Below, in pieces: positions 2,811-46,122 of a DNA stretch of 64,000 nucleotides. Numbering within the stretch: position 1 is the stretch's first letter; the number at the start of each line of letters is the position of its first letter. The notes beneath the pieces were generated by a model. That model saw only the letters and a list, made by a program, of their open reading frames with translations, made no database searches and was not told where the DNA came from. Origin of the DNA: Felis catus (lineage: Eukaryota); contig NC_058368.1 in assembly GCF_018350175.1 (NCBI RefSeq), positions 12,710,001 through 12,774,000 of the forward strand. Direction: 5' to 3'. Made by a program: the position numbers and the translations under genes.

Positions 2811-3470
2811 TCAATCAATAGTATCTTTGAGGACTTACTGTGTACTGGGAACCACTGAAAGAAAAATATTTTCCATTGGCAGCAAAGTGCTTCGCCCTGA
2901 GACCTCCGAACAGTACAGAGCTAAGGCTTTGCCTGTGGGCAGGACAGTGAGACGGAACACCCACCTGTTTCTGAGAAGAGATTTTCCAGGGTAACCATCT
3001 GGCATCTTCTGCAGAATGCCAGATCTTTGGCACGAGTTTGTCTTTAAAACAACAACACAATTAAGCTTCTGTGAAGCATGGTGCTGTGTAAATCCACCGT
3101 GTTAGAGATACTATCTTGACATCTAGGTACTGGTTCAATAGCATCACACTGCATCCAAACAAAGATGCCTTTCATTGTGTTTGTGTTTAGCCTCAGATGA
3201 AAATAGCTATGTGGGAAAACAAATTTCTCATGGGTTGTAAGTACTATTCAGACCAGTTAATACTTACTGTGTATCTACAGTATCTTCAAATGTTAAATTT
3301 CTTTGAAACAACTCTTGATGCTGCCAGTCCTTAAATGAATCAGCTTAATGTTAACAATGTAGTACTGTCATTATTTGTATTATTTATGTTGTGCTGTATT
3401 ATTTAATATTTTCTCACTCTGCAGAGGCAGCTATCCCAAGCATATTAAAGACACATTTCTTGCTAGAATT

Positions 3471-3472
3471 AG

Positions 3473-3519
<47 letters not shown>

Positions 3520-3626
3520 GGAAAGGAAAGGAGGAAGGAAAGAAAAGAGGGAGAGGGACAGAGAGAAAAGAGAAAGAAAGAAAGAAGGAGGAAGGAGGAA
3601 AAGAGGGAGAGGGACAAAGAGAAAAG

Positions 3627-3677
<51 letters not shown>

Positions 3678-3728
3678 AGAAAGGAGGAAGGAGGAAAAGA
3701 GGGAGAGGGACAGAGAGAAAAGAGAAAA

Positions 3729-3777
<49 letters not shown>

Positions 3778-3828
3778 AGAAAGGAGGAAGGAGGAAAAGA
3801 GGGAGAGGGACAGAGAGAAAAGAGAAAA

Positions 3829-3897
<69 letters not shown>

Positions 3898-3935
3898 GAA
3901 AACAAACGAAGGAAGGAAAAAAAGGAAGAAAGAAA
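3471..3935. repeat. compound (GAAA)n microsatellite with four interspersed GGAGG/GGGACA cassettes
   Basis: directly visible ~460-bp almost pure purine tract. Confidence 0.97.
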
Positions 3936-4109
3936 ATCTCTAAGGCAAAATCTATAGGGACAGGAGGTACGCAGATGATTTTAATAGTCAGCAAGAAAAG
4001 ATATTAAACAATTACAACTTTCTGCTTTTTCTCCCACATATTTATCATTCTTGGGGTGCCAATCTCAGAAGTCTAGACTAGGAGAGTTTTGAGAGTTGTT
4101 AATTTATCT

Positions 4110-29813: not shown

Positions 29814-30469
29814 AAAAAATGAAGACTGTCCGAGAAAGCTACTGGAACAGAAATGAACACAATGGTAGTATTTTTGTTACACTAATGTAAAAAGGAAAAA
29901 GAAATACTGACTTTAAGACTTAATTTCAAGATACAACTATCACATAGCAACGACAGATACTAACAATGAAGTGGTCATACCAGACCGTAGGATCCTAGAA
30001 AATAGTAATTTATCGTTTTCCTTTTTGGTGCCTTTCCTTCTTTCCTTTTCCATGATCCCACTGAGAAAGTTGGTCTCCATACAGAATATTCCGGAGGGTA
30101 ATTGAAGGAATGACTGAGTTAATGAATCAGTGAGAGTTACTGAGAGGGTCTTATTTTGTTATGGTTATGCAGGAGAGAAGGACAGCAGTCTGGAGGAATT
30201 AGAGTTGTGAATAAAGTTAAAGTTCAAAAAATAAACACCTGAATTCAGAAAATATTGACAGCAGTAAGGTATGACTAGCAATGCAGGCAGAAGGCTGCAT
30301 ACAGCGGCCAACGTGAGAAAATAAAAGAGACATTTTAAGAAAAATAGAGAGGATCTAAGCAAAAGTCTGGGAGCCAGGAGAGAAGCCCCTATCCAGGAGA
30401 GCAAGTCTGTGGGCAAAGCGGGCAGGGGGGCTGCTGGGTAGGTTACTAAGAACTACCGTGGTGCTTCCT

Positions 30470-30600
30470 GGGGCGCCTGGGGGCTCAGTCGCTTAAGCTT
30501 CTAACTTGGACTCAGGTCATGATATCGCGGTTCACAAGTTCAAGCCCTGAGTCGGCCTCTGTGTTGGCAGCTGAGAGCCTGGAGCCTGCTTTGGATTCTG

Positions 30601-30634
<34 letters not shown>

Positions 30635-30705
30635 ACTCCCCTGCGCTCACTCTCTCTCTTGCTCTCTCTCCCCATCCCTCAAAAATAAACATCAAAAAAT
30701 TTTTT
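30470..30705 (+). mobile_element. SINEC_Fc
   Basis: ggggcgcctgggggctcagtcg...ctcaaaaataaacat; degenerate TSD taagaact...ttcct. Confidence 0.94.
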
Positions 30706-30759
30706 AAGAACTGCATGTTTCCTGTGCTTCAGGCACCCACAGAAACTACTTTTTTTGTG

Positions 30760-30935
30760 TAAGCCTTCCAAACAGCTCTCTGGGGTGACTACTGAGATCC
30801 CCATTTACAAGTTAAGAAAGGAAGCTCAGAGACCTTAAGTGACCCACCCTGAGTCACACAGCTATTAGGTGGCACAGATTTAGTTACATCTGGCTGACAC
30901 CAGAGTCCCTGATCTGTCCACTGTTCTGCATTTCT
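30760..30935 (-). mobile_element. MIR
   Basis: atccccatttacaag...gaagctcagagaccttaagtgacccaccctgagtcacacagct. Confidence 0.65.
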
Positions 30936-31316
30936 CAGAGGCTGTATGACAGAGGGGGCTGCGGGATTCCCCCAGATACTGCCAAAGGGCCGTGAACTCT
31001 GAGAACAAACAAACAAACATGAAGTCTCTACTTGCTTAAGAGCAAATAAAGCTGAGATCAAGGAAGATCAGATTTGGACTCAGGCAAGAGGTCAGAGTGA
31101 ACTCAAGCACAGGGACAGAGTTATTGCAAAGAGTAAACATTGATTAAGCAATTACCTTGAGCCCTAAGCCTAGAAGATGATCACTGCTTTATACTGGCTT
31201 GGAAAGAGAGAACGGCTTTCTTAGTACGTATGTATACATGTGTCTATACAATGTGTATTACTTATACCTTGAGATTCTTTTGAATGCAAGTAACTAACTT
31301 GGGTACTTTAAATAGT

Positions 31317-31317
<1 letters not shown>

Positions 31318-31363
<46 letters not shown>
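31318..31363. repeat. (CA)n microsatellite
   Basis: direct read. Confidence 0.97.
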
Positions 31364-31366
<3 letters not shown>

Positions 31367-31846
31367 ATGTTTAGGGAAAGCTTGAGCATCTTTTTTGTTT
31401 GATTCTGAGCCCAAGTCAGGAAGATGAGTCCTGTTTCAGAAGCCCCTAAGCAGGTCCCTTGAGGAGAAGAGAATGCTGAGTATCTGCTTACTTTGCCCAG
31501 AACCTCCACAGGGGAAGTTTCCTGCCTGCTGTGCTGGCTAAAAGGAAGAGCCAGAGGCCTTGTCCTGGCTTCCATCTGATGGTGCCCTGGCCACAGAGTA
31601 GACTGGACCAGAGGTGGCCCCAGCACAGGCAGCCAGTCCACCGACTGGCTACAGATTTACAGAGTGGCTCCAAATAAAGGTGGGCTAAGGCAATAAGACT
31701 TTCTTGGAACTATGAATTGAGAGAATATACTTGAAATCAGTTTATTCGTGAGGTGCAAGAAAGGAAATGGCTTTATTATTTTTTTCTCCAACCAATGCCT
31801 CCTTTGCATTTCCCTTTTGTGTTTCTCTTAGTGAGAGCTCAAGAAG

Positions 31847-32996
31847 TGTAGCACAGGCCACTTTAGAAATTTCGACTTCAGGGGCGCCTGGGTGGCTCAG
31901 TCGGTTAAGCGGCCGACTTCGGCTCAGGTCATGATCTCACGGTCCGTGAGTTTGAGCCCCGCGTCGGGCTCTGTGCTGACAGCTCAGAGCCTGGAGCCTG
32001 TTTCAGATTCTGTGTCTCCCTCTCTCTCTCTGACCCTCCCCCATTCATGCTCTGTCTCTCTCTGTCTCAAAAGTAAATAAACGTTAAAAAAAAATTAAAA
32101 AAAAAAAGAAATTTCGACTTCACATCTAACTCAAAGCTGTCACCTACCCCCTAGACTCCTAGCTGAGGACTAACTGAAGGTGGGGGCCCTATGCTGGGGA
32201 AGGGAAGCCTAATCTGTGTTTTCACTCGCTGTTGCGCTTTATAGCTCCTCTGTCTTCCATCTTGGAGTAATACGGTCTCAGAGCAAGGACAGATATTTTG
32301 TATGTGGTCGGTGCTACTGTATTTTGGTTACTGGTATCATCATTACGCTTCTTCCCCGGCAGGGCATACCCGTGGGTTTTTCATACCACCCATCCCTTAT
32401 TCTAGGCAATGCACTTTCTGATCTCTTGAAACACTTCTCAGCCCTGACTTTTGGCTGTCAATCCCACAGCTCCTCTCTTCTTGGTCTCCCCACAGGCAGG
32501 AAGGAATTGAGGGAGGGAGAACTTTCAGACAGCTGCAGTGTAGCTACCCGTTACGGTGCATACTTGAAGGTGGGCAAGTCTCAGGTCCCTGCCCCATCCC
32601 CAAAGCTGGGGTCTGCTGCTCCGCTGGTCCTCCCCACTCACTTGTGCACCCCGGCTTTTGTGGTCAGCCTTCACCTTAGCAATCTCAAGGCCAGAAGCAA
32701 CAGCCAGGCCCTACGTGCGTGTATGCCCAAGCTTTCTCAAGGCCTCTTCTGCTGCCCAGTACTCTGGTTGCTACTTTGACTCTGGAGGTCAGTGACTTCT
32801 AGCTGGGGAGGACCATGTCAGTGTCTCTTGGAGCTTCTTGAATTTGGTCTAAGGCCTGTGTGAGCAGCTCACCCTACACACCTTCCTACACTCCTTCAAC
32901 AATTTCCTAATTCAAACTAATGTCTTACATCAGTGAACTCTCTACACTTTCCTCCTCCCCTGAATAAATTCTTGTCTTCTGCTGAGAGAGGCTACA
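31847..32996 (+). mobile_element. probable ancient solo LTR (~0.9 kb net; family uncertain, possibly Gypsy-type)
   Basis: inverted termini tgtagc...gctaca, AATAAA ~30 nt before the 3' end, interrupted by SINE 31881-32106. Confidence 0.45.
31881..32106 (+). mobile_element. young SINEC_Fc
   Basis: near-consensus with CpGs; perfect 16-bp TSD agaaatttcgacttca at 31865-31880 and 32107-32122. Confidence 0.97.
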
Positions 32997-33482
32997 TGAT
33001 GTAGAGGTGGGAATAAAGGTCAAATGACTACTTTGGTCACCTCTTATTTTTTATTATTTTGTTATGCCTGGAAGCTGTTGTTTATTTTTTCTTCTTTTTT
33101 TAAACCTTAAATCCTAGTTAACATATAGTGCAATGATTTCAAGAACAGAATTTAGTGATTCATCACTTACATGTAACACCTAGTGCTCATCCCAACAAGT
33201 GTCCTCCTTAATGCCCCTTGCCCATAGAGGGTCCCCCATCCAACACCCTTCCAGCAACCCTGTTTGATCTCTGCATTTAAGACTCTTTTACGGTTTGTCT
33301 TCCTCTCTATTTTCATATTATTTTTGCTTCCCTTCCCTCATGTTCATCAGTCTTATATCTTAATTACCACATATGAGTGAAGTCATATGATATTTGTCTT
33401 TCTCTGACTGACTTATTTCACTTGGCACAGTACACTCCAGTTCCATCCACGTTGTTGTGAAAGGCAGGATTTCATTCTTTTT

Positions 33483-34110
33483 TTTTTTAATTTTATTTTT
33501 TTAAATTTACAACCACATTAGCATATAGTGCAACAATGATTTCAGGAGTAGATTCCTTAATGCCCCTTACCCATTTAGCCCACCCCCCTTCCCACAACCC
33601 CTCCAGCAAACCTGTGTTTGTTCTCCATATTTAAGAGTCTCTTATGTTTTGTCCCCCTCCCTGGTTTTCTATTATTTTTGCTTCCCTTCCCTTATGTTCA
33701 TCTGTTTTGTTTCTTAAACTCCTCATATGAGTGAAGTCATATGATATTTGTCTTTCTCTGACTGACTAATTTCACTTAGCATAATACCCTCCAGTTCCAT
33801 CCACATAGTTGCAGATGGCAAGATTTCATTCTTTTTGATTGCTGAGTAATACTCCATTGTATATATATACCACATCTTCTTTATGCATTCACCCATCGAT
33901 GGACATTTGGGCTCTTTCCATACTTTTGCTATTGTTGATAGTGCTGCTATAAACATTGGGGTGCATGTGTCCCTTTGAAACAGCAAACCTGTATCCCTTG
34001 GATAAATACCTAGCAGTGCAATTGCTGGGTCATAGGGTAGTTCTATTTTTAGTTTTTTGAGGAACCTCCATACTGTTTTCCAGAGTATCTGCACCAGCTT
34101 GTATTCCCAA
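33483..34110 (-). mobile_element. 5'-truncated younger L1 nested in the 3' end of the host L1
   Basis: own poly(T) at ~33478-33502; open ORF2 C-terminus 33723-34094 (WRFLKKLKIELPYDPAIALLGIYP...MTSLI); TSD gatttcattcttttt at 33468-33482 and 34112-34126. Confidence 0.92.
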
Positions 34111-34145
34111 AGATTTCATTCTTTTTGATCATCAAGTAATATTCC

Positions 34146-34147
<2 letters not shown>

Positions 34148-34196
<49 letters not shown>

Positions 34197-34200
34197 ATGT
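34148..34200. repeat. (TG)n microsatellite expanded inside L1
   Basis: direct read; the nested L1 copy has only gtatatatata at the homologous site. Confidence 0.95.
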
Positions 34201-36669
34201 ATATATACCACATCTTCTTTATCCATTCATCTGTCGATGGACATTTGGGCTCTTTCCATACTTCGGCTACTGTTGATAGTGCTGCTATAAACATTGGGGT
34301 GCACGTGCCCCTTAGAAACAGCACTTGTGGATTGTAGCATAGTTCCTTTTTTAATTTTTTGAGGAAACTCCACAATATTTTCCAGAGTGGCTATACCAGT
34401 TTGTATTCCCACCAGCAGTGCAAAAGGGATCTTCTTTCTCCACATCCTCAACAACAATCTTTGTTGCCTGAGTTGTTAATTTTAGCCATTCTGACAGGTG
34501 TGAGGTGGTGTCTCATTGTGGTTTCGATCTGTATTTCTCTGATGATGAGTGATTTTGAGCATTTTTTCATGTGTCTGTTAACTATCTGGATGTCTTCTTT
34601 AGAAAAGTGTCTATACATGTCTTTTGCCCATTTCTTCACTGGATTATTTGTTTTTTGGGTATGGAGTTTGATAAGTTGATACTAACCCTTGACCTGATAT
34701 GTCCTTTGAAAATATCTTCTCCCATTCTGTCAGTTGCCTTTTAATTTTGCTGATTGTTCCCTTCACTGTATAGAAGCTTTTTATCTTGATGAGGTCCCAA
34801 TAGTTCATTTTTGCTTCTGGTTTCCCTTGCATCCGGAGACATGTCGAGTAAGAAGCTGCTGCAGCCAAGGTCAAAGAGGTGGTTGCCTGTATTCTCCTCT
34901 AGGATTTTGATGGTTCCTGCCTTACATTTAGGTCTTTAATCTATTTTGAGTTTATTTTTGTGTATGGTGTAAAAAAGTGTTCCAGGTTCATTCTTCTGCA
35001 TGTTGCTGTACAGTTTTCCCAGCACTATTTGCTGCAAAGACCGTCTTTTTTCCATTGGATATTCTTTCCTGCTTTGTCAAAGATTAGGTGGCACATGTTA
35101 GTGGGTCCATTTCTGGGTTCTCTATTCTGTTCCATTGATCTATGTGTCTGTTTTGTGCCAGTACCATACTGTCTTGATGATTACAGCTTTATAATACATC
35201 TTGAAGTCCAGAATTGTGATGCCTCCAGCTTTAGTTTTCTTTATCAAGATTAGTTTGGCTAATTGGGGTCTTTTCTGGTTCCATAAAAATTTTAGGATTG
35301 TTTGTTCTAGCTATGTGAAGAATGCTGGTGTTATTTTGATATGGATTGCATTGAATATGTAGATTGCTTTGGGTAGTATCAACATTTTAACAACATTTGC
35401 TCTTCTGATCCATGAGCATGGAAAGTTTTTCCATATTTTTTATATCTTCTTCAATTTCTTTCATAAGCTTTCTATAGTTTTCAATGTATAGAGTTTTCAC
35501 CCCTTTGGTTAGGTTTATTCCTGGGTATTTTGTCGGTTTTGGTGCAATTGTAAATGGGATTGATTCCTTGATTTCTCTTTCTGCTGCTTCATTATTGGTG
35601 TATAGAAATGCAACCAATTTATGTACAATGATATTATATCCTGTGATTTTGCTGAATTCATGGATCAGGTCTAGCAGCTTTTTGGTGGATCTTTGGGTTT
35701 TCCACATAGATTATCATGTCCTCTGCAAAGAGTGAAAGTTTGGCTTCCTTTTGCCAATTTGGATGCCTTTTATTTCTTTGTGTTGTCTGATTGCTGAGAC
35801 TAGGATTTATAACACTATGTTTAATAACAGTGGTGAGAGTGGACATCCTTCATCCTGTTCCTGACATTAGGGGGAAAACTCTGTTTTTCCCCATTGAGAA
35901 TATTAGAGGTGGGTCTTTCACATATGGCTTTTAGGATCTTGAGGTACAATCCTTCTATCCATACTTTATTGAGAGTTTTTGTCAAGAAAGGATGCTGTAT
36001 TTTGTCAAATGTTTTCTCTACACCTATTGAAAAGATTATGTGGTTCTTATCCTCTATTTTATTAATGTGATATATCACATTGATTGATTTGTGGATATTG
36101 AACCATCCCTGCATCCCAGGAAGAAATCCCACTTGATCTTGGTGAATAATTCTTTTAATGTATAGTTGGATCTGGTTGGCTAATATCTTGTTGAGAATTT
36201 TTGCATATTCATCAGGGAAACTAGTCTGTAGTTCTCCTTTTTAGTGAAGTCTTCATCTGGTTTTGGAATCAAAGTAATGCTGGCCTTGTGGAATGAGATT
36301 GGAAGTTTTCCTTCCATTTCTAATTTTTGGAACAGCTTCAAAAGAATAAGTGTTAACTCTTCTTTAAATGTTTGGTAGAATTCCCCTGGAAAGCCATGAA
36401 GCCCTGGACTCTTGTTTGTTGGGAGAATTTTGATTACTGATTCAATTTCTTTACTGGTTTTGGGTTTGTTCAAATTTCTATTACTTTCTGTTTCACTTTT
36501 GATAGTTTATATGTTTCTAGGAATTTGTCCATTTCTTCCAGATTTCCCAATTTGTTGGCATATAATTCTCATAATATTCTTATTATTGTTTGTATTTCTG
36601 CAGTCTTTGTTGTGATCTCTCCTCTTTCATTCATGATTTTATTTATTGGGTCCTTTCCTTTTTCTTTTT

Positions 36670-36876
36670 TTTTTTTTAACGTTTATTTTTTAGACAGAGA
36701 GAGACACAGCATGAACGGGGGAGGGGCAGAGAGAGAGGGAGACACAGAATCGGAAGCAGGCTCCAGGCTCTGAGCCATCAGCCCAGAGCCTGACGCGGGG
36801 CTCGAACTCGCGGACCGCGAGATCGTGACCTGAGCTGAAGTCGGACGCTTAACCGACTGAGCCACCCAGGCGCCCC
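36670..36876 (-). mobile_element. very young SINEC_Fc in L1 ORF2
   Basis: CpGs retained (gacgcggggctcgaactcgcggaccgcgagatcg); TSD tcctttttcttttt at 36656-36669 and 36878-36891. Confidence 0.97.
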
Positions 36877-37783
36877 ATCCTTTTTCTTTTTGATCATTTT
36901 TTATCTTTTTGATCCTTTAGGCTAGGGGTTTATCAATTCTGTTAATTCTTCCAAAGAACCAGCTCCTGCTTTCATTGATCTGTTCTACTACGGTTTTTTT
37001 TCATTTTGATATTATTGATTTCTGCTCTAATCTTTATTATTTCCCTTCTTCTGCTGGTTTTGGGCTTTATTTGCTGTTATTTTTCCAGCTGTTTTAAGTG
37101 TAAGGTTAGGTTGTGTACTTGAGACCTTACTTCCTTCTTTAGGAAGGCCTGGAGTCCTATATACTTCCCTCTTATGATGACCTTTGCTGCATCTCAGAGG
37201 TCTTGGCTGTCGTGTTTTAATTTTCATTGGCTTCCATGTACTTTTTAATTTCTTCTCTAGTTTCTTGGTTAACCCATTCATTCTTAGCAGGGCGTTCTTT
37301 AATATCCAAGTATTAGTGGTCTTTCCAAATTTTTTCTTGTGGTTGATTTCGAGTTTTATAGCATCGTCTTCTGAAAATATGCAAGGTATGATTGTGATCT
37401 TTTTGTACTTGTCGAGGGCTGATTTGTGACCCAGCATGTGATCTATTCTAGAGAATGTTCCATGAGCACTCCAGAAAATGTGTATTCTGCTCCTTTAGGA
37501 TGAAATGTTCTGAATATATCTGTTAAGTCCATCCAGTCCAGTGTGTCATTCAAAGCCATAGTTTCCTTATTGATTTTCTGCCATTGCTGTAAGTGGGGTG
37601 CAGAGGTCCCCTATTATTATGGTATTATTATCAATGATTTTCCTTATGTTTTTGATTAACTGATTTATATATTTGGGTGCCTCTATGTTGGGGGCATAAA
37701 TACTTACAGTTGTTACATCTCCTTGTTAGCATTTTGTGAATTTGACTATGATATGCCTTGGTGATGGTTTTTGTTGAATCTAA

Positions 37784-37998
37784 ATTTTTTTTAACATTTA
37801 TTTATTTTTGAGAGAGAGAGAGAGACAGAGTGTGAGCTGGGGAAGGGGCAGAGAAAGAGGGAGACACAGATTCCAAAGCAGGCTCCAGGCTCCAAGCTGT
37901 CAGCACAGAGCCTGGTGTGGGGCTTGAACTCACAAGCCATGAGATCATGACCTAAGCTGAAGTCAGATGCTCAACTGATTTAGCCACCCAGGTACCCC
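37784..37998 (-). mobile_element. SINEC_Fc in L1 ORF1
   Basis: perfect 18-bp TSD ggtttttgttgaatctaa at 37766-37783 and 38000-38017. Confidence 0.96.
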
Positions 37999-40900
37999 AG
38001 GTTTTTGTTGAATCTAATGGGAGTTCTATGTGCTTCTTGGGTTTTGAAGTCTGTGTCCTTCCCCAGATTAGGAAAGTTTTATGCTATAATTTTCTCACAT
38101 GAACTTTTGCTCCTTTTTCTCTCTCTTCATCTTCTGGGACTCCTACAATTTAGATATTTTTCCTTTTTAATAAGTCACTGAGTTCTCTAAGTCTTTTATC
38201 ATGCTCTTTTGCCCTTTCTTCCCTCTTTTTTTTCTGCTTCATTATACTCCATAATTTTGTCTTCTATACTGCTGATTCGCTGCTCTGCTTCATCCACCCT
38301 ATTTGAGATTGTATTTATCTCTATTTGAGATTGTCTATTTGAGATGTCTATCATCTATTTGAGATTGTATCTTGGTTATAGCATTTTTAATTTTGTCCTG
38401 ACTAGATTTTACTTCTTTCATCTCCACAGAAAGGGATTCTATGTTTTTTCAACCCAAGCTAATATTCTTATTATCACTGTTCTAAAATCTAGTTCAGACA
38501 ACTCACTTATGTCTGTGTTGATTAAGCCCCTGATTGTCATTTCTTCCTGTTCTTTCTTTTGAGGTGAATTCTTTCATTTTGTCATTTTGGAGGAAGAAAA
38601 AAATTAATAAAATAAAAATTAAAAAATTAAAAACAACATGAAAAATCAAATAAAGGAAGCTAGATCCTAGGGGTGCTTTGGTCTGCTTGCTGAAAGAAGC
38701 TTGATAGAATAGAGAAAAAAAGGAAAGAAAAGAAAGGAAAAAAAGATAAGAAAAAATTTAAAAATTAAAAAAATTACATAATGAAATAGAATAAAATGAA
38801 ACAAAGCAAATGAAATAGAATAAAAAATTTTAAAAATAAAGAATAAAGTAAAAAAACTTTAAAATTTTTTTAAATTAAAAAAAAGAATAGAAAAATAAAA
38901 ATTTTCTCTTTCTGTACCCAAGAAAAAGAAAGGAAAAAAAATTAAACATAAACAGAAGTAAAACAAAAAAAGACAAACTAATAAATGAACCCACAAACAG
39001 AATGAAACCTTAATGAAGTTACATCCAGTTTCCCCTAGAATTGAAAGTATGAAGCCCTCTACAGTCCATATACTAAGCAGGTGGAGGGACTTGTGTTGGT
39101 CTTCTAAGGGATGTGCTTGGAGGGCACATTTGGGTGAGGCTTGGTTTAGTGGCTCCATTCTCCACCAAGCTAGCTGGTGTTGCTTAGCTTACTGGAGTGG
39201 ATCAGTGTGCATGCACACATGTACTTGCATGGGAGAGGTAGAAATGGCTTCACCCAGATCCCTAGTCTCTGGCACAGGAACTTTGCGTTCTCACAGGCTT
39301 GTGATCAAGCACCACTCCTTTGTCCAAGGCCTCCATCTGCTCCCTGCCTCCACCCTGTCTGTGTCCAAGCCATCAGCCTACCCAGTGGCACCTCCTTCCA
39401 GAGTTTTATCTCAGATGGGGCTGTGTTTCAAAACCCCACACTTCAGAGACTCTGCAGACTGGATCCATGTGGACTCTCTGGGGGAGGGTCTTGATGAACA
39501 ATGGCCAGGTGCTCGCTTGCCCCAGAAAATGTTCCTGCGTTCATGCAGAGGCAGACGTTCAGAAATTATGGCAAATCACAACACACAGCCAGTGCCAGAT
39601 TTCACCGTACTCTGGAGTCTTTGTCTCAATACCAGCAAATGTGGCTGCTCTCTGGGTTCCACTGGGACTTTTGCCTGTGGGAAGGCCATATGGCCTCCAC
39701 CAAATGTTCTCCAAGCAGGGGAACCACTTCTCCCTGTGTGGCATACGGACCCCTCAGATTCTGCTATCTGCTCCTGGGGATTCACCCACTTTCCTCACCA
39801 GAGCACCACTAGGCACTGTGCTCCAGAATTTCCGACTCTGCACTCCACTGTTTATAGAATCCTAATGGTATTGAAACCCTCTCTTCCAGTCAGTGGTTTT
39901 GGGAAACAGATTTCTTGTTCAGCCTTTCTCTCTCTTTCTCTCCAGCTACTTTTGGGGGAGTGTTTTTCCTGCACTCTCCCGATGCACCACACTCTCCCCC
40001 TTTCTCTGTCTTCTCTCTGCAAAAACAGCTCCCTGCCCTCTGCAGCTTTTCTCTACCCCAGTTCACCTCTCCATACCACATACCTGCTGAGTTCTGTGGC
40101 TCAAGTTATGCATATTGTTGTGTTACTCCTCAGATCAATTTCCTAAGTTGAAAAATGGTTTGGTGCTGATCTAGCTGCATTTCAGGGTTGAGACAAGCTC
40201 AGGGTCTCCATACTGCTCTGCCATCTTTGGTCACCTCTTACTAGGGGCTGGAGGGAGGAGACATCTGGCTGTTCTTCCACATTCTGTCTGAAAATCAGGG
40301 ATTCTGTACCTGCTAGCTTCAATTTTGAGGTCTTAGCTAAAATTCTGAAAAGGAAATTAATCAACAGAGGAGCCTATTGGTAGAGAGCAGACAAATGTAG
40401 AACAGATAATATGAGTGAGAGCGAGAACAGCTAGAGAAAGAGACAAAGATGGAAAATGAGAGAGAGTATCAGGCCATAAAAGGGGGAGAGAAGTCGGTTC
40501 CTAAAGTCGACAGCTATAAGCTTTGCAGTTCCAGCTGCCCTCCCATTCCCTGGTTTAAATGACTAAACAAAATTACACTAGCAATTTACTTGAGGCAACT
40601 TTGGTGAATCACTGTTCCAAAGGCATAAAACAAAAACAATGAGAGTGCCTCCTGGAATACCCCACTTCTTCTCAAGTAATTTCTCTGGACACATCTGAGG
40701 GCAGCCATTCTCTCCCATACTGAGAGCTAAAAGAAGCACCCAGAACTCTGGAGACCTCCCCATTTGGTTATGTGAACTGCACCTGAGGTCAGACTTAAAA
40801 AAAAAAGCTGCTAACGAAATAGAAGGAAAAAAGAGTCATTTTCTGGCAAAAGGTATTTTAAGGTGCTCCCTGACAGTATCTGTAAAACCGGCTGAGTGAT

Positions 40901-41158
40901 TGGCCATCAAATTATTTCAGAGGATGTACAATATTCTCTATGCTGTGCACAACTTAAATATGGACTTTTCTTGGAATAATGACACTCAAATGTTCAGAAA
41001 TGGCTCCCATAGAACAATATGCATGTGATAGATATGCATTTGCATCATTCGAGAACAAAACCCTCAGATCAGAAATAGTAAATTGAAGCACATGGAGATT
41101 TTCTTTCTGCGGATAATCATGCCATAGCTTTATTACCAATACTCTGCATCTAGCTCTT

Positions 41159-41628
41159 TGTGGTAGACTGCTTGCAAAGATAGATGCAACAATCTTTTGC
41201 AATGTGACCTTGCCATTTCTTCCTTCAAGAGCTGAAGTCTGGTTCCCTTCCCCTTAACTCTTGGGAGGCACTGGGACTTGTGTTGAACAACAGAATGTGG
41301 CAAAAGTGGTGTCATATGATTTGCAATCCTCTGCTTCGAGAAGTCTTGAAGCTTCCTCCCCCTTGTGGCCCCAAGAATGGTTATCCTCCTTGAGGATGAA
41401 AGAGCATAGCAGGAGAGAGGCCTGGCTCACAGCCAGTACCAGTTTCCAGGCAGTGAGAATGTCTTGGGCAATCCCCTCATCCAACCAAGCTGCTAGATGA
41501 CTGAGTGTATTGGTCAAGACCAAGCACCAAAAGAACCACAGAACCCACAGAATTGCTAACCAAAAAAGAGTGTGTTCCAACTGCCAAATTGCAGGGGTTT
41601 TGTTACAAAGAAATAGATGAAAATTCAC
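41159..41628 (+). mobile_element. MaLR solo LTR (MLT1H-like)
   Basis: tgtggtagactg...tttgcaatgtgaccttgcca...aacagaatgtggcaaaagtg...ttttgttacaaagaaatagat. Confidence 0.75.
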
Positions 41629-42411
41629 ACAAGGGTATACCACTTTCCTTATCATGAGCAGGTAGTTTTTTGCCACTGTCCAGTAGGAACCAGGGTGGCC
41701 ATTGACGCAACTAGCCCACAGTACAATTGAAAAGGCTCATCTCACAGGGTTATCTTATTAGGAGCTTGTTGTTTTGAGACAACATTTTATTGTTAAGCAA
41801 TGTAATGAGCAGGAGTTCTCCCTAACGCTACAGGGAAGTGGCATTTCAGTGGGGTGGCAGTACTTGCTTTTTGGGTTGTTTCATATGTGAAAAAGTTTGC
41901 CTACAGGCATGCCTGGGGAGTGAAGGCAGACTTTTTAAAGCCAGGATATCACCTAAAATGGATCTTATTTGCATGTATCAGCAGTGACATCACACAGGGG
42001 TTTTCACTTTTCTTTCCCTTCTGCCAACGATTGCAACTAATTGAGAATTCTGTGACTGTTTCAGTTGGAAGATATTACACAGGACACACACATCTGAGTA
42101 ATGACTGACACCAGCTGCTGTCAGAGAGATGGTAGTGATTTTTCAAATTGACAAAAAGCTTATCAAAGCAAATGTAATGGGGGTTAAATACAATTGCAAG
42201 AATAAACCCCCCCATGTGATGACTTTGCATACACAAAGAGAGCATGTTCCAGGCGCATGGTCCTGTTCTTCTTCACTGAATACCTACACTGGAATGCCAC
42301 TGGTCCTGACCCGACTAATTTTCATCCCTGGGTAAGAAGAATAATCTCCATGCTATTCAAAACAATCTTAAAATGCAACATGGAAAAATAAACACCCTGT
42401 TGCTCTTGTTG

Positions 42412-42412
<1 letters not shown>

Positions 42413-42455
<43 letters not shown>
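42413..42455. repeat. (CT)n microsatellite
   Basis: direct read. Confidence 0.95.
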
Positions 42456-42458
<3 letters not shown>

Positions 42459-43614
42459 CCCCCTTGTAGGAGAAAACATTCTGCCTCATGTCCAGCAGAT
42501 GTTTGGAGAAGAGTACATTAAGCACTCATGGATTCCACATAAAGGAATCCAAGAACTCCAGGAAGTTCTGCCTAAAAATACTTCAAACTCCCACATATCT
42601 TGGCTATGAGTTTCTCAGCACCTGTCTTGGCTTTAGGGGACTTCTGTAATGGGAAAAGTTAGGCACAGCATCTCTGGGGATAAAAATGTTAGTGCTTAGC
42701 TTGTATTGGCATACAAACGATTTTGCTTTTGCAACAGGGGATGAGACACAGGCACCAGGGCCACGATTTTGCACCTTTTGAAATCATACTCAAGCTTGAT
42801 TTAAAAAAAATTAATTTTAGATCAACTGTTAAGTGTTCCAAAATTCTAGCCAAAGGGCGGGAAGGGAGAGGTGCTGAGATACTACATTCTCACAGAACTC
42901 TAAACAGTGAAATGTTACACGCAAGTGCTTTCAAAACAAAAAAAGTATCATCCAATACAATGATTTATTTATTTGTTGACTTTTAAACAAAACTTTGTAA
43001 GAGCAATAATTTCATGGGCAAAATAATTATATAGTGAAGTATATTCAATATTTACAGTTACAAGCAGCTCCCATAGTACCCTTGACTCAATTATAACCAG
43101 TCCAGGATGAGAATCTAGTAGCTCAGATCCTAAGTGGCCATTCAGAAGCCCCCTGTTCTTCCCTAGCCTAAGAAATTATTTGGTCTAAATCATGTAGTTT
43201 GTCTCTAGGAATGGATCAAACAATTCAAATAATTACCCAAACTCATTTTTTTTATAGTGATAACGACAGTCCTATTACCAGGAAACTGTCATCAAGGACC
43301 TTGAACAACAAGCCTGATATATCTAGAATCATGATGTGATTGTGTACTCAAGATGATGTAAAAGGGAAAGATCTAGCGAAGGTTTTGATCCTACAGAATT
43401 CAGTCTTAGCATCTGGCAAAATAGTATCCAAAAGCTTTTCCTGACATGTGGACATCTTCATTATTTTCATTGTATTGTATATTTAGTCAGGTATACAGTG
43501 AACATATTTATTTCTTTAATATAGTGTCATCTCATATGGGGAATGATAAGAGGACTCTTCTAAGATGTAAAAGACAAGATTGGTTCATCTGCTATGTGAT
43601 CTTAGGGAAATAAA

Positions 43615-44060
43615 ACCAAGCTGACATTTATTAAAGGCTCATTCTGTGAAAGGAGCTTACAGAGTACTTTTAAGCCAAGTTTTATTTTAATCTTTTCAAC
43701 AGTCCCAATAGGCAGTATTATCTCTATTTCCAAATGCAGAAACCAAGTCTCTCGGTAAGTGACTTGCCCAGGCTCATCAGCTGATGAACAGAGGCAGGAT
43801 TTGAATCCATGTCTTTCAGACTCCAGAGCTCATGCTCTTACCTGCTTCAGTGAGATCTAGTGTCAGCAGTTCTGGGGTCAAACCTCAGCTCTGCCACTAA
43901 TCAACTGGGTAGACTTGGAAGTTACTTAACTTCTGTGTGCTCTCATTTTCTGCTTGTAATATAGGAAGGATACTATTTAGACCAGAATACTGGGAAGATT
44001 AAATTGGACATAATATGGAAAGGGTTTCCCACGAGGAGTCCTTAAGTAAAGGTTAGTTCC
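43615..44060. mobile_element. two adjacent MIRs (minus ~43615-43850, plus ~43860-44060)
   Basis: gtaagtgacttgcccagg...ggatttgaatcc...gactccagagctcatgctctta; then ctcagctctgccacta...gttacttaacttctgtgtgc. Confidence 0.65.
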
Positions 44061-44389
44061 TTCACTTTCTTCCTTGCCTGGGCCTCAGTTTCCCCCTCTG
44101 TCCATTAAGGAAGGCCTTAGAGCTATAGAGACTTCGGAAAGCAGCGGGTGTAGTTTCGATTTATAGGTAAGAAAACTAAGACCGAGAGAAGAAGGGACCT
44201 ACCTCAAATTACAGCTAGTTAGTGAGTAGTTTGTTTTCTCATAGTAGTCATTTTTATTTTGTTGCTGGAATGAGATTCAGATGTAGTTTAATCAAACCAT
44301 CTAGAATCCAGATAACCTAGATTCTAGGTAATTTGCAAAATTCTACTTATTGTATTTTGTTTGTTTTTGGATTTTGGTCCAGGCTACCT

Positions 44390-44790
44390 AATGCATTTAC
44401 TGCATATATGCTACTGTATAAAAGGGCATTCATCGTTGTGCTCTCAGTCTGAAATGCACTTCTCCTGACTTTTCCTGGCTCCTCCTCATCTTTCAGGTCT
44501 AAGCTCAAATGCGACCTCCTCGAGCAGCGTTTGCTGGGAGTCTTAATCACGCCTCCCTTCCCACCTCAGCCAATCACTTTCCATCATGTCATCTTGTGTA
44601 TTTCCTGAGAGGCAATTAACGCAATCTGTAATTACCGTGTTTACAATTAACCTGTTTACTGTTCCTCTGGCTACACCAGAACATAAATACCATGAAAAGG
44701 AGCTCTTCAGCATTTGTTTCATTTTGGTACCCCAGCCCTAAGTCCAAACCTGACACCTCATAGGCTCAAAGAACTGCTGGGTGAATGAAC
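44390..44790 (+). mobile_element. L2 3' region
   Basis: tcatctttcaggtctaagctcaaatgcgacctcctc...ccccagcccta...taggctcaa...gtgaatgaa. Confidence 0.7.
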
Positions 44791-46122
44791 ATCTCTGCTC
44801 ACCTAACCATCCACCTCCCACTCATACATCAATCCACCCATCCATCAATTTTCCTCAAAAGATCTAAAACACTTCAAAATACAAATGATGGCTTGATAAT
44901 TTAGGTTTCAAATGAACAAATAAATATATAATTGGCCTGGGTGGTGAGGGTAAAGAGGTCACAAATGAAACCCCTGTCTCATTCAAATAGAAAGGGAAGC
45001 CAGCACATTCAACTACCATGAATGACTGACTTTAAAATACTTAATCAGAACCAATACGAATTTTTAAAACCTTGGTAATTAATACAAGCAGGAATAGTCA
45101 TGAAATACAGCTTGCCTGAAGTTTTATTTTTAGCACAGAAGTTTTTAATTCCTTAGAAACATTCTGCCAGGAAAGTTTCATGTTCCTTTTTCTCCTAGTC
45201 ACAGAAATTACTCCCTGCCACTTGAGTGCCAAATCTGGAGACTCACATTAAGTGACTTGCAGCCTCAACTGCCGTTATGGGGATGAAGAATAGCACCACC
45301 TCTCTTCCATTTCCCCAGTAGGTGTTTCTTATTTGGCTCTACACCTGAATATGAAATGAGTCCAATTAAAAAAAAATCCTTTTAATGCTGTAAGCTTTTG
45401 GGCATTTGTTTTTCCCTCTTTACCCTAGAGAACTCTGAGGATTGAATTCTTAGAGTAAACGTTATTCTAAAGAAGAATGTAGGTAAAAATAAAATTCAGT
45501 AATGGGCACTGCAGAAATAAGATAGAAGAATGTGACAGATGGAGTGGATTATACCAAGGATAATTTTGAACTCGTTCATCTTCATAAATATTGGCTTTTG
45601 TCACAAGTTTACTGAACAACTTTCTTGTGTTTTTTTTAAGAAGTCAGGTATATAGCAAGAAACAGAGTTTTAGAGAGAGGATATAGATCTTTTTTCATAA
45701 TAACATAATGTGATCTTTATCACTGACTACTTTGGGTACACACAGGAGTCTCATAATTGCTACTGTTTCAAACCATTCCCCAACACACTTTCTTTCAAGA
45801 ATAAAAGTGCATGCACCAAAAGATATTTCACTAAAAGTGAAATATCTAGAAAATAAAATTTAAGCTTGGTACAACTCTTTAGATATACTAAGATTCAATG
45901 TATCAAAATGAGCACTAATATTCCAGTTTGGATGGGCTAATTCCATGCCATGCCTCTAATCCAAGCATAATAATTACTAGCCCCTCCTTTCACTCAGAAG
46001 TATCTGGCTTAGACAACAAATTATATGATATGATCACCCTAACAATAGTCACTCAACTTTGAGATATTTTGGTAAAGAAGCAGTGTCTTTCTAATCTCTT
46101 TCCCCAAAGTCTAACATCATGT

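What the first reader, a model, noticed from the sequence alone, without database searches (positions are those of the whole stretch)
39013..40146. 377-codon antisense ORF spanning the 5'UTR of an otherwise dead carnivore L1 (ORF0 analogue?)
Seen: the longest ORF in the window (ATG 39013 to TAA 40146) lies wholly within the L1 5'UTR. It runs antisense toward the L1 5' end and stops ~80 nt before it, while the same element's ORF2 is broken into fragments of 140 aa or less. With uniform base composition, 377 stop-free codons has a hand-estimated probability of (61/64)^377, about 1e-8 per start. Known: primate L1 has an antisense promoter and a short antisense ORF0 in its 5'UTR; I know of no carnivore equivalent. 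Inference: this may be a family-encoded antisense protein or a de novo ORF. Caveat: the other two + frames are also stop-poor here (181, 105 and 103 aa), so strand composition explains part of it, and the peptide has no domain I recognise.
Basis: partly seen in the sequence, partly recalled or inferred. Interest (0 to 1): 0.7.

Follow-up and report, generated by a model that had tools for sequence, protein, structure and literature searches.

The report
Chance ORF in old L1 leader
The long open reading frame is really there, but it arose by accident in one decayed copy of an ancient LINE-1 element, on a strand that carries few stop codons, and nothing marks it as a gene.

Summary
The ORF is real. 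It runs from ATG 39013 to TAA 40146 on the + strand (377 codons; 385 stop-to-stop from 38989). It is the longest in the window and lies antisense in the 5'UTR of a dead minus-strand L1 whose 5' end is at 40227.

It is not family-encoded. I aligned it with 38 other copies from the same genome, all about 80% identical in a star-like pattern. Against them, the window frame passes through all three ancestral frames. The switches come from indels private to this copy: +5 at 39170, -1 at 39449, -5 at 39881 and -20 at 39924. The frame also crosses two sites where 32 and 33 of 38 copies carry an in-frame stop.

- No other copy exceeds 316 open codons.
- There is no codon-phase composition bias, while ORF1 and ORF2 controls show one.
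- There is no Pfam domain.
- The only protein relatives are ORFs called on other copies, each a different mosaic of frames.
- One of these, a Panthera uncia gene model, has a TGA in its ortholog here.
- RNA data showed no locus-specific transcript.

The family's antisense strand is stop-poor in all three frames. Resampling real copies gives P(>=385 codons) of about 0.05% per copy, and there are thousands of copies, so a few such ORFs are expected by chance.

Verdict: chance ORF, low interest.

The parts
39013..40146 (+). The 377-codon ORF (ATG to TAA). The open run from the previous stop starts at 38989 (385 codons).
38578..40227 (-). 5'UTR of an old, dead L1 (sense strand is the minus strand). 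The shared 5' end of the family is at 40227. The ORF1 remnant starts near 38577 (M of 'MKEFTSKE', position counted by me from the translation).
   Evidence: 26 of 38 copies end exactly at 40227; homology continues left to about 38000
38600..38990 (.). A-rich (T-rich on the L1 sense strand) low-complexity tract between the ORF and ORF1. It is full of + strand stops and bounds the ORF on its 5' side.
39170..39174 (+). 5-nt insertion private to this copy. It switches the ORF from one ancestral frame to the next.
   Evidence: shared by 0 of 38 copies; frame path
39449..39450 (+). 1-nt deletion private to this copy; second frame switch.
   Evidence: 0 of 38 share
39881..39882 (+). 5-nt deletion; third frame switch.
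   Evidence: 1 of 38 share
39924..40001 (+). 20-nt deletion (0 of 38 share), followed by a +4 (10 of 38 share) and a -2 (17 of 38 share) in CT-rich sequence. These give further frame switches; the alignment of the last two is less certain.
39166..39168 (+). Window codon 51 is CAA here. 32 of 38 other copies carry a stop in this frame and place (TAG in 31).
39817..39819 (+). Window codon 268 is TGT here. 33 of 38 other copies carry a stop (TGA in 32).
39167..39873 (+). Longest run free of shared stops in the family's majority state: 236 codons in one ancestral frame. The first shared ATG is in only 21 of 38 copies and gives 218 codons. The other two frames are open here for 184 codons and for 141 and 119 codons.
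37784..37999 (-). SINE inserted into the ORF1 region of this L1 copy. It is absent at this place in the other copies. Calling it a carnivore SINE is from recall.
35821..36240 (-). Reverse-transcriptase fragment of the same L1 (ORF2 remnant).
   Evidence: PF00078 RVT_1, E 1.4e-9

Best explanation
The ORF is a non-functional accident of decay in one copy of an old L1 family. Three things combine.

(1) The sense strand of this family's 5'UTR is purine-rich, so the antisense strand is pyrimidine-rich (A 21%). In the family's founder state it carried only about five stop triplets over all three frames in its central ~885 nt.

(2) After insertion, this copy acquired four to six frameshifting indels. 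They stitch open pieces of all three ancestral frames together. Two substitutions removed the two ancestral stops that lay on that path.

(3) The genome holds thousands of copies of this 5'UTR, so the lucky combination is expected a few times.

Shown: the mosaic frame path, the privacy of the indels and stop losses, the lack of a coding signature, and the resampled odds. Inferred: that nothing is made from the ORF.
For: The frame path runs through majority frames 0,1,2,1,0,2,1.

Enabling indels are shared by 0, 0, 1 and 0 of 38 copies. In-frame stops occur in 32 and 33 of 38 copies at window codons 51 and 268.

The 38 other copies have longest antisense open runs of 105-316 codons, against 385 here.

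The window copy is as diverged as the rest: mean identity to the others is 0.810, against 0.799 +/- 0.017 among the others. The pattern is star-like.

Codon-phase composition:
- The ORF in its own frame gives chi2 3.0 (p 0.81).
- The per-copy median is 6.2 (df 6) over the majority-state open run.
- Decayed ORF2 pieces of the same element give 19.2, the old-family ORF1 region a median of 20.8, and young ORF1 35-46 (30-40 on its first 711 nt).

Positive control: in the ORF1 region one sense frame has 2 shared stops against 15 and 23 in the other two. In the central ~885 nt of the 5'UTR antisense strand, all three frames are poor in stops (1, 2 and 1).

Resampled chimeras of real copies give P(>=350) of 0.29-0.36% and P(>=385) of 0.04-0.06%. 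There are 3511-3877 (DNA) to 7397 (protein) first-look candidates in the genome.

No Pfam family matches the ORF, the other two frames or the 6 related proteins. Atlas recognition is 857, far under the 2300 that 91 in 100 known-family proteins reach.

The related proteins are 43-62% identical ORFs from other copies and read different mosaics of frames.

The Panthera uncia model P0003 has its ortholog here at 96% identity with 1 TGA inside.
Against: 0 of 5000 dinucleotide shuffles reach even 350 codons.

In each of 30 copies, the central region of the antisense strand has about half the stop triplets that dinucleotide shuffles give (mean 14.1 against 26.0). TAA, TGA and TAG are among the six most depleted of 64 triplets. 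Simple composition is therefore not the whole story at the family level.

The majority state has a 236-codon stop-free run. An annotation pipeline did call one such ORF a protein in another felid.

Orthologous loci of this very copy in other species could not be examined. The RNA data were too thin to exclude rare transcription.

The resampling used the 38 best-scoring copies, and the copy number rests on unverified first-look candidates.
Confidence: 0.9

Rival explanations
1. Family-encoded antisense protein. While active, this L1 family carried an ORF0-like antisense ORF of about 218-236 codons in its 5'UTR, and the window ORF is a distorted remnant of it.
For: The majority state has a 236-codon run free of shared stops (window ~39167-39873). 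Antisense stop triplets are depleted beyond dinucleotide expectation in all 30 copies tested. Several independent copies give ORFs of 208-302 aa. The ATG at 39013 is ancestral, present in 30 of 38 copies.
Against: All three frames are open together in the central region, which is not the one-frame pattern that the ORF1 control shows. There is no codon-phase bias: median chi2 is 6.2 against 20.8 for ORF1 of the same family. The first shared ATG of the long run is in only 21 of 38 copies, and from the ATG at 39013 the ancestral frame closes after 51 codons. Comparable stop depletion occurs in ordinary tiles of this window (7 of 144 with z <= -3), and this region was picked for being the extreme. 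There is no domain and no similarity to L1 coding sequence. The unrelated 5'UTR of the young L1 family shows little or no such depletion in 7 copies.
Confidence: 0.03
2. Locus-specific de novo gene. The ORF arose by accident but is now transcribed from the + strand and translated in this species.
For: A long ATG-initiated ORF exists. A sister ORF from another copy is annotated as a protein in Panthera uncia. L1 5'UTRs of primates have antisense promoters (Denli et al. 2015, as cited in PMC5203782).
Against: Divergence from the family is the same as for other copies, so there is no sign of constraint. There is no coding periodicity. The sister ORF is not conserved between felids. The exact protein did not turn up in the 5.8-billion-protein collection, and the Atlas does not hold it.
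Confidence: 0.05
3. The stop-poverty of the antisense strand is itself selected, for example by a constraint on the sense-strand 5'UTR RNA or DNA that disfavours TTA, CTA and TCA. Long antisense ORFs are then its by-product.
For: TAA, TGA and TAG on the antisense strand have observed/expected ratios of 0.32, 0.56 and 0.68 against a first-order model. CAT (the sense ATG) is also low at 0.66, as expected for a leader that avoids upstream starts. Shuffling within blocks of 15-120 nt does not remove the effect. There are no internal repeats to explain it.
Against: Effectively this is one founder sequence of ~880 nt. Individual triplet deviations are no larger than those of unrelated triplets (TAT 1.81, AGA 1.62). 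Background tiles reach z <= -3 in 7 of 144. I know of no mechanism, recalled or found, that would disfavour these three sense triplets.
Confidence: 0.1

Closest known systems
Primate L1 ORF0 (Denli et al. 2015, known to me through its description in PMC5203782, passages read)
   Same: An ORF on the antisense strand of the L1 5'UTR, upstream of ORF1.
   Different: ORF0 is 71 codons and belongs to the primate L1 family as a whole. The ORF here is 377 codons, private to one copy, closed in the family's majority state and a mosaic of three frames.
Reverse ORFs r1/r2 of mammalian L1s (Ivancevic et al. 2016, PMC5203782, section 17 read)
   Same: Antisense ORFs of about 1 kb without known domains in carnivore L1s (panda, dog, Siberian tiger).
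   Different: Those overlap ORF1 and occur in most intact, active copies (1157 of 1200 in panda). This ORF starts about 436 nt upstream of ORF1, lies in an old dead family, and is not shared by other copies. Young L1s of this genome do carry a 190-249-codon antisense ORF over ORF1 in 14 of 30 loci, which is the closer match to that class.
Chance ORFs on strand-skewed sequence
   Same: The next longest ORFs of this window (188-214 codons, both strands, 3355-4007) lie in a purine-rich GAAA-type satellite. Here too, length follows from a strand that lacks the letters stops need.
   Different: The L1 5'UTR is not a simple repeat, and its stop depletion goes beyond dinucleotide composition.
Gene model 'uncharacterized protein LOC125936195 [Panthera uncia]' (P0003)
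   Same: A 302-aa ORF on the antisense strand of the 5'UTR of another copy of the same L1 family. It starts at the ATG that aligns with window codon 78 and ends at the same stop.
   Different: It is a different locus and a different mosaic of frames (51% identity; the middle third is read in other frames). Its ortholog in this genome (C10:51790502-51791407) has a TGA inside.

Membership tests
L1 5'UTR (old felid/carnivore L1 family; no repeat library at hand to name it) | Contiguous with ORF1 and ORF2 remnants on the same strand | tested here: met
   RVT_1 on 35821-36240 (-). Homology with other copies runs unbroken from about 38000 to 40227 through the ORF1 remnant.
L1 5'UTR (old felid/carnivore L1 family; no repeat library at hand to name it) | Sharp common 5' end among many dispersed copies | tested here: met
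   26 of 38 copies end exactly at 40227 and 35 of 38 within 40217-40231.
Family-encoded L1 antisense ORF (ORF0 type) | Antisense position within the 5'UTR | tested here: met
Family-encoded L1 antisense ORF (ORF0 type) | Frame open in the family's founder state and in many copies | tested here: not met
   Stops in 32 and 33 of 38 copies lie within the window's frame. Four needed frameshifts are shared by 0, 0, 1 and 0 of 38 copies. No other copy exceeds 316 codons.
Family-encoded L1 antisense ORF (ORF0 type) | Coding signature (one frame open and the others closed; codon-phase composition) | tested here: not met
   All three frames are stop-poor. Chi2 is 3.0 (p 0.81) for the ORF and a median of 6.2 in copies, against about 19-46 in ORF1 and ORF2 controls.
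Family-encoded L1 antisense ORF (ORF0 type) | Antisense promoter and transcript | tested here: inconclusive
   Of 64 reads laid from the raw RNA run X24, 59 lie only partly on the stretch and 9 are 99% or more alike. Contig runs cannot show transcription.
Reverse ORF r1/r2 of Ivancevic et al. 2016 | Overlaps ORF1 in the reverse direction | tested here: not met
   The ORF starts at 39013. The ORF1 remnant starts near 38577, with a stop-rich A-rich tract between them.
Reverse ORF r1/r2 of Ivancevic et al. 2016 | Sequence similarity to the published r1/r2 proteins | not testable with these tools
   The supplement that could be searched holds no 'antisense' or 'reverse ORF' text, and one of the 2 files could not be searched. 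Figure 10 is not held.
De novo protein-coding gene | Transcription and translation of the ORF | tested here: inconclusive
   no ribosome-profiling data at hand
De novo protein-coding gene | Conservation of the frame in related species or reduced divergence | tested here: inconclusive
   The orthologous locus in other species could not be fetched. Divergence from family copies is not reduced (0.810 against 0.799). A sister ORF is not conserved between two felids.

The most novel reading that the evidence does not exclude
The founder of this old L1 family kept its 5'UTR antisense strand nearly free of stops in all three frames. One possibility is that it encoded an ORF0-like antisense protein of about 220-240 codons. 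Another is that a constraint on the leader had that side effect. Either way, its thousands of decaying copies would be an unusually frameshift-tolerant seedbed for new ORFs in felid genomes, one of which is already annotated as a protein in the snow leopard.
Probability: 0.05. Interest if true: 0.5.

Novelty: not a real feature. Interest (0 to 1): 0.1.

Why it matters
If the ORF were family-encoded, it would be the first ORF0-like gene outside primates, and that would bear on how L1 leaders evolve. The evidence says it is not. The practical value lies elsewhere:
- It is a worked example of why ORF length alone misleads on strand-skewed repeat sequence.
- It flags that gene models such as LOC125936195 in Panthera uncia are probably L1-leader artefacts.
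- It gives a control recipe for similar findings: per-column stop counts across copies, a frame-path analysis, a phase test with ORF1 as positive control, and resampling of real copies.

Tried and rejected
RNA evidence:
- One search for runs and one lay of four runs.
- The raw oligo-dT run X24 (about 2 in 100 of the run read) gave 64 reads. 47 were only 90-95% alike and 59 lay only partly on the stretch, so most are reads from other copies.
- X21 gave 4 reads.
- The metatranscriptome contigs of X15 cover the L1 and its unique flank 40189-41500 without differences, so they may be host DNA.
- X19 gave 7 small pieces.
- This shows nothing either way about transcription, and it did not give an orthologous sequence from another species.

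More copies: a second own-genome search listed 40 places, about half of them new, but no loci could be cut. The copy sample therefore stayed at 38.

Origin of the leader from inverted coding sequence: six-frame translations of the 5'UTR against the rest of the window and 30 young L1 loci gave only weak hits (best E 8e-5), all to the outer flanks of three loci (L048, L039, L044) and none in an ORF1 or ORF2 region. Pfam at E <= 1 gave nothing except one 10.8-bit DUF4716 hit.

Internal monomers or tandem repeats in the leader: none. Rfam on 30000-46000: no match. Earlier findings of this scan: none.

Homology with the leader of the young L1 family: none. The bodies are only about 70% identical.

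Literature: two searches found no report of an antisense ORF in a carnivore L1 5'UTR. They did find the ORF1-overlapping reverse ORFs of PMC5203782.

Structure prediction was not run. A poor single-sequence model would not tell a chance peptide from an orphan protein.

Full report
**The observation.** The + strand carries an ORF from ATG 39013 to TAA 40146, 377 codons. The stop-free run begins at 38989 and spans 385 codons. It is the longest in the window. Apart from a second + frame of this same region (186 codons), the next longest are 188-214 codons and lie in a purine-rich GAAA-type satellite at 3355-4007 and at 32213-32779. The two other + frames of the region are also long: 186, 106 and 104 codons. 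The ORF has 21 stop triplets on the + strand, split 1, 10 and 10 by frame, against 44 on the minus strand. Its composition is A 0.21, T 0.29, G 0.22, C 0.29.

**What the region is.** Minus-strand fragments to the left include a reverse-transcriptase match: PF00078 on 35821-36240, E 1.4e-9. A search of the window's own genome (2.43 Gb) with the ORF's DNA found 3877 first-look candidates, of which 40 were scored. All other copies were 75-80% identical over the full length. Against 38 fetched copies, homology runs from about 38000 to 40227. It passes through the ORF1 remnant and an A-rich tract. 26 of 38 right ends fall exactly at 40227. The copies form a star: mean identity of each to the rest is 0.77-0.81. 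That implies about 0.12 substitutions per site per copy since the founder (my Jukes-Cantor arithmetic), which is tens of millions of years; the rate used for that is recalled, not tested. The copy carries a SINE insertion at 37784-37999 that the other copies lack. The currently young L1 family of this genome (ORF1 open for 326-340 codons in many loci) is only about 70% identical in the body and has an unrelated leader of about 830 nt.

**Is it more than chance?** Against dinucleotide-preserving shuffles of 38989-40230 it is: 0 of 5000 reach 350 codons (mean longest 117, maximum 303). That null ignores the history of the sequence, so I turned to the copies.

**The frame is not ancestral.** I aligned the window copy with 38 others, kept the columns that most copies occupy, and counted stop and ATG triplets per column and frame.
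- The window's ORF runs through majority frames 0,1,2,1,0,2,1.
- The switches are indels of this copy:

| Indel | Position | Copies sharing it |
|---|---|---|
| +5 | 39170 | 0 of 38 |
| -1 | 39449 | 0 of 38 |
| -5 | 39881 | 1 of 38 |
| -20 | 39924 | 0 of 38 |
| +4 | 39927 | 10 of 38 |
| -2 | 39999 | 17 of 38 |

- The last two lie in CT-rich sequence, where the alignment is less sure.
- On its path the ORF crosses two places where the others have a stop. At codon 51, 32 of 38 have a stop (TAG in 31) and the window has CAA. At codon 268, 33 of 38 have a stop (TGA in 32) and the window has TGT.
- The variants at these sites in the few copies without a stop all differ from each other, so they are private changes.
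- The ATG at 39013 is ancestral (30 of 38), but from it the ancestral frame closes after 51 codons.
- None of the 38 other copies has more than 316 open codons on this strand (range 105-316). On the sense strand the range is 58-187.
- The window copy is as diverged as any other: 0.810 against 0.799 +/- 0.017.

**No coding signature.** Base composition by codon phase is flat. Chi2 is 3.0 (p 0.81) for the ORF in its own frame, and the per-copy median is 6.2 (df 6) over the longest majority-state run. Controls do show a phase bias:
- Decayed ORF2 pieces of the same element give 19.2 (p 0.004).
- Young ORF1 gives 35-46, or 30-40 on its first 711 nt.
- The ORF1 region of this same old family gives a median of 20.8.

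In that ORF1 control, the majority state shows the expected pattern: 2 shared stops in one sense frame against 15 and 23 in the others. In the central ~885 nt of the leader, all three antisense frames are poor in shared stops, with 1, 2 and 1.

Pfam finds nothing in the ORF, the other frames or the related proteins. The protein atlas gives a recognition value of 857 and no usable hit. There is no similarity to L1 coding sequence.

**Relatives.** The 5.8-billion-protein search returned 6 proteins of 208-302 aa at 43-62% identity. Five are from metagenome or run assemblies. One is 'uncharacterized protein LOC125936195 [Panthera uncia]'.
- Their sequences show they are ORFs called on other copies of the same leader, each reading a different mosaic of the three frames.
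- The Panthera model has its ortholog in this genome at C10:51790502-51791407, 96% identical over all 302 residues, with one TGA inside.
- Such an ORF is therefore not kept between felids.
- Of the 130 candidates scored in that search (132 match rows), 3 rows had no stop inside, and only the window's spans the full length.

**Why the strand is so open.**
- In each of 30 copies, the central region has about half the antisense stop triplets that dinucleotide shuffles give: mean 14.1 against 26.0. The sense strand has 34.1 against 40.5.
- TAA, TGA and TAG have observed/expected ratios of 0.32, 0.56 and 0.68 and rank among the six lowest of 64 triplets.
- Shuffling within blocks of 15-120 nt does not explain the depletion.
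- There are no internal repeats.
- In the majority state, the longest run free of shared stops is 236 codons, window ~39167-39873. It is 218 codons from an ATG held by 21 of 38 copies.

This is the one residue that simple composition does not explain. Two controls temper it. Among 144 tiles of 880 nt from this window, z against the same shuffles averages -0.84, and 7 tiles reach -3 or lower. This region was also chosen because it held the extreme ORF. The young family's unrelated leader shows little or no depletion in 7 copies. Because no founder sequence was made, a shuffle test on the founder itself remains open.

**Odds.** I joined random pieces of the 38 real copies at random alignment columns, 40,000 chimeras each for 2, 4 and 8 pieces. 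This gives P(>=300) of 2.1-2.3%, P(>=350) of 0.29-0.36% and P(>=385) of 0.04-0.06%. With 3511-3877 DNA candidates and 7397 protein candidates in the genome, about 1.5-4 copies with 385 or more codons are expected. The candidate counts are unverified first looks, and the 38 copies are the best-scoring ones, so this is rough.

**Expression.** One search for runs and one lay of four runs gave no locus-specific signal. Details are under Tried and rejected.

**Comparison with what is known.**
- Primate ORF0 is a 71-codon antisense ORF of the L1 leader, as described in PMC5203782 (passages).
- Ivancevic et al. 2016 report antisense ORFs of about 1 kb overlapping ORF1 in panda (1157 of 1200 intact L1s), dog, Siberian tiger and others, without firm domains (section 17 read).
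- The present ORF shares strand and rough size with these. It fails the defining point of both, which is presence in the family at large, and it does not overlap ORF1.
- Young L1s here do carry a 190-249-codon antisense ORF over ORF1 in 14 of 30 loci.
- Two literature searches found no report of a leader-borne antisense ORF in carnivores.

**Verdict.** The ORF is a post-insertion accident on a stop-poor strand of a high-copy old L1 leader. A small chance remains that the family's stop-poverty had a cause worth knowing.

Noticed in passing
window 3355-4007 (core about 3470-3900): A purine-rich GAAA/GGAA-type satellite with a higher-order unit of about 120 nt. It gives ORFs of 188-214 codons on both strands, the next longest in the window outside the L1 5'UTR.
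   Followed up: partly
L031-L060 (young L1 loci of G000), sense coordinates about 1134-1898: 14 of 30 young L1 loci carry an antisense ORF of 190-249 codons overlapping ORF1. This resembles the reverse ORFs reported for tiger and dog in PMC5203782.
   Followed up: partly
old-family ORF1 region, window about 37513-38512 and homologs in L002-L030 and L068-L076: In the majority state, one antisense frame over ORF1 has only 3 shared stops (150-codon run), against 13 and 22 in the other two.
   Followed up: no
G000:C10:51790502-51791407 (-) and protein P0003: The NCBI model 'uncharacterized protein LOC125936195 [Panthera uncia]' is an antisense ORF of an L1 leader copy. Its ortholog here has a TGA inside. 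It is probably an annotation artefact.
   Followed up: partly
window 36683-36916 (-), 37784-37999 (-), 31835-32080 (+): Three copies of a SINE (translations share 'AWVAQSVKRPTSAQV'), two of them inserted into the L1. Calling it a carnivore SINE is from recall.
   Followed up: no
window 33723-34115 and 34049-34390 (-): Two adjacent, similar pieces of the L1 ORF2 C-terminal region ('CTPMFIAALST...VWKEPKCPS'), one interrupted by a (CA)n/(GT)n run. This suggests a second L1 3' fragment or a duplication.
   Followed up: no
window codons 94 (39295) and 175 (39538) of the ORF: At these sites the other copies split between TGA (16 and 11 of 38), CGA (7 and 5) and CAA (6 and 9). This is the pattern of a founder CGA decaying at its CpG, a recurrent source of stops that this copy escaped.
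   Followed up: no
window 31262-31656: A (GT)n/(CA)n microsatellite, seen as 'CVCVCVCV' in translations.
   Followed up: no
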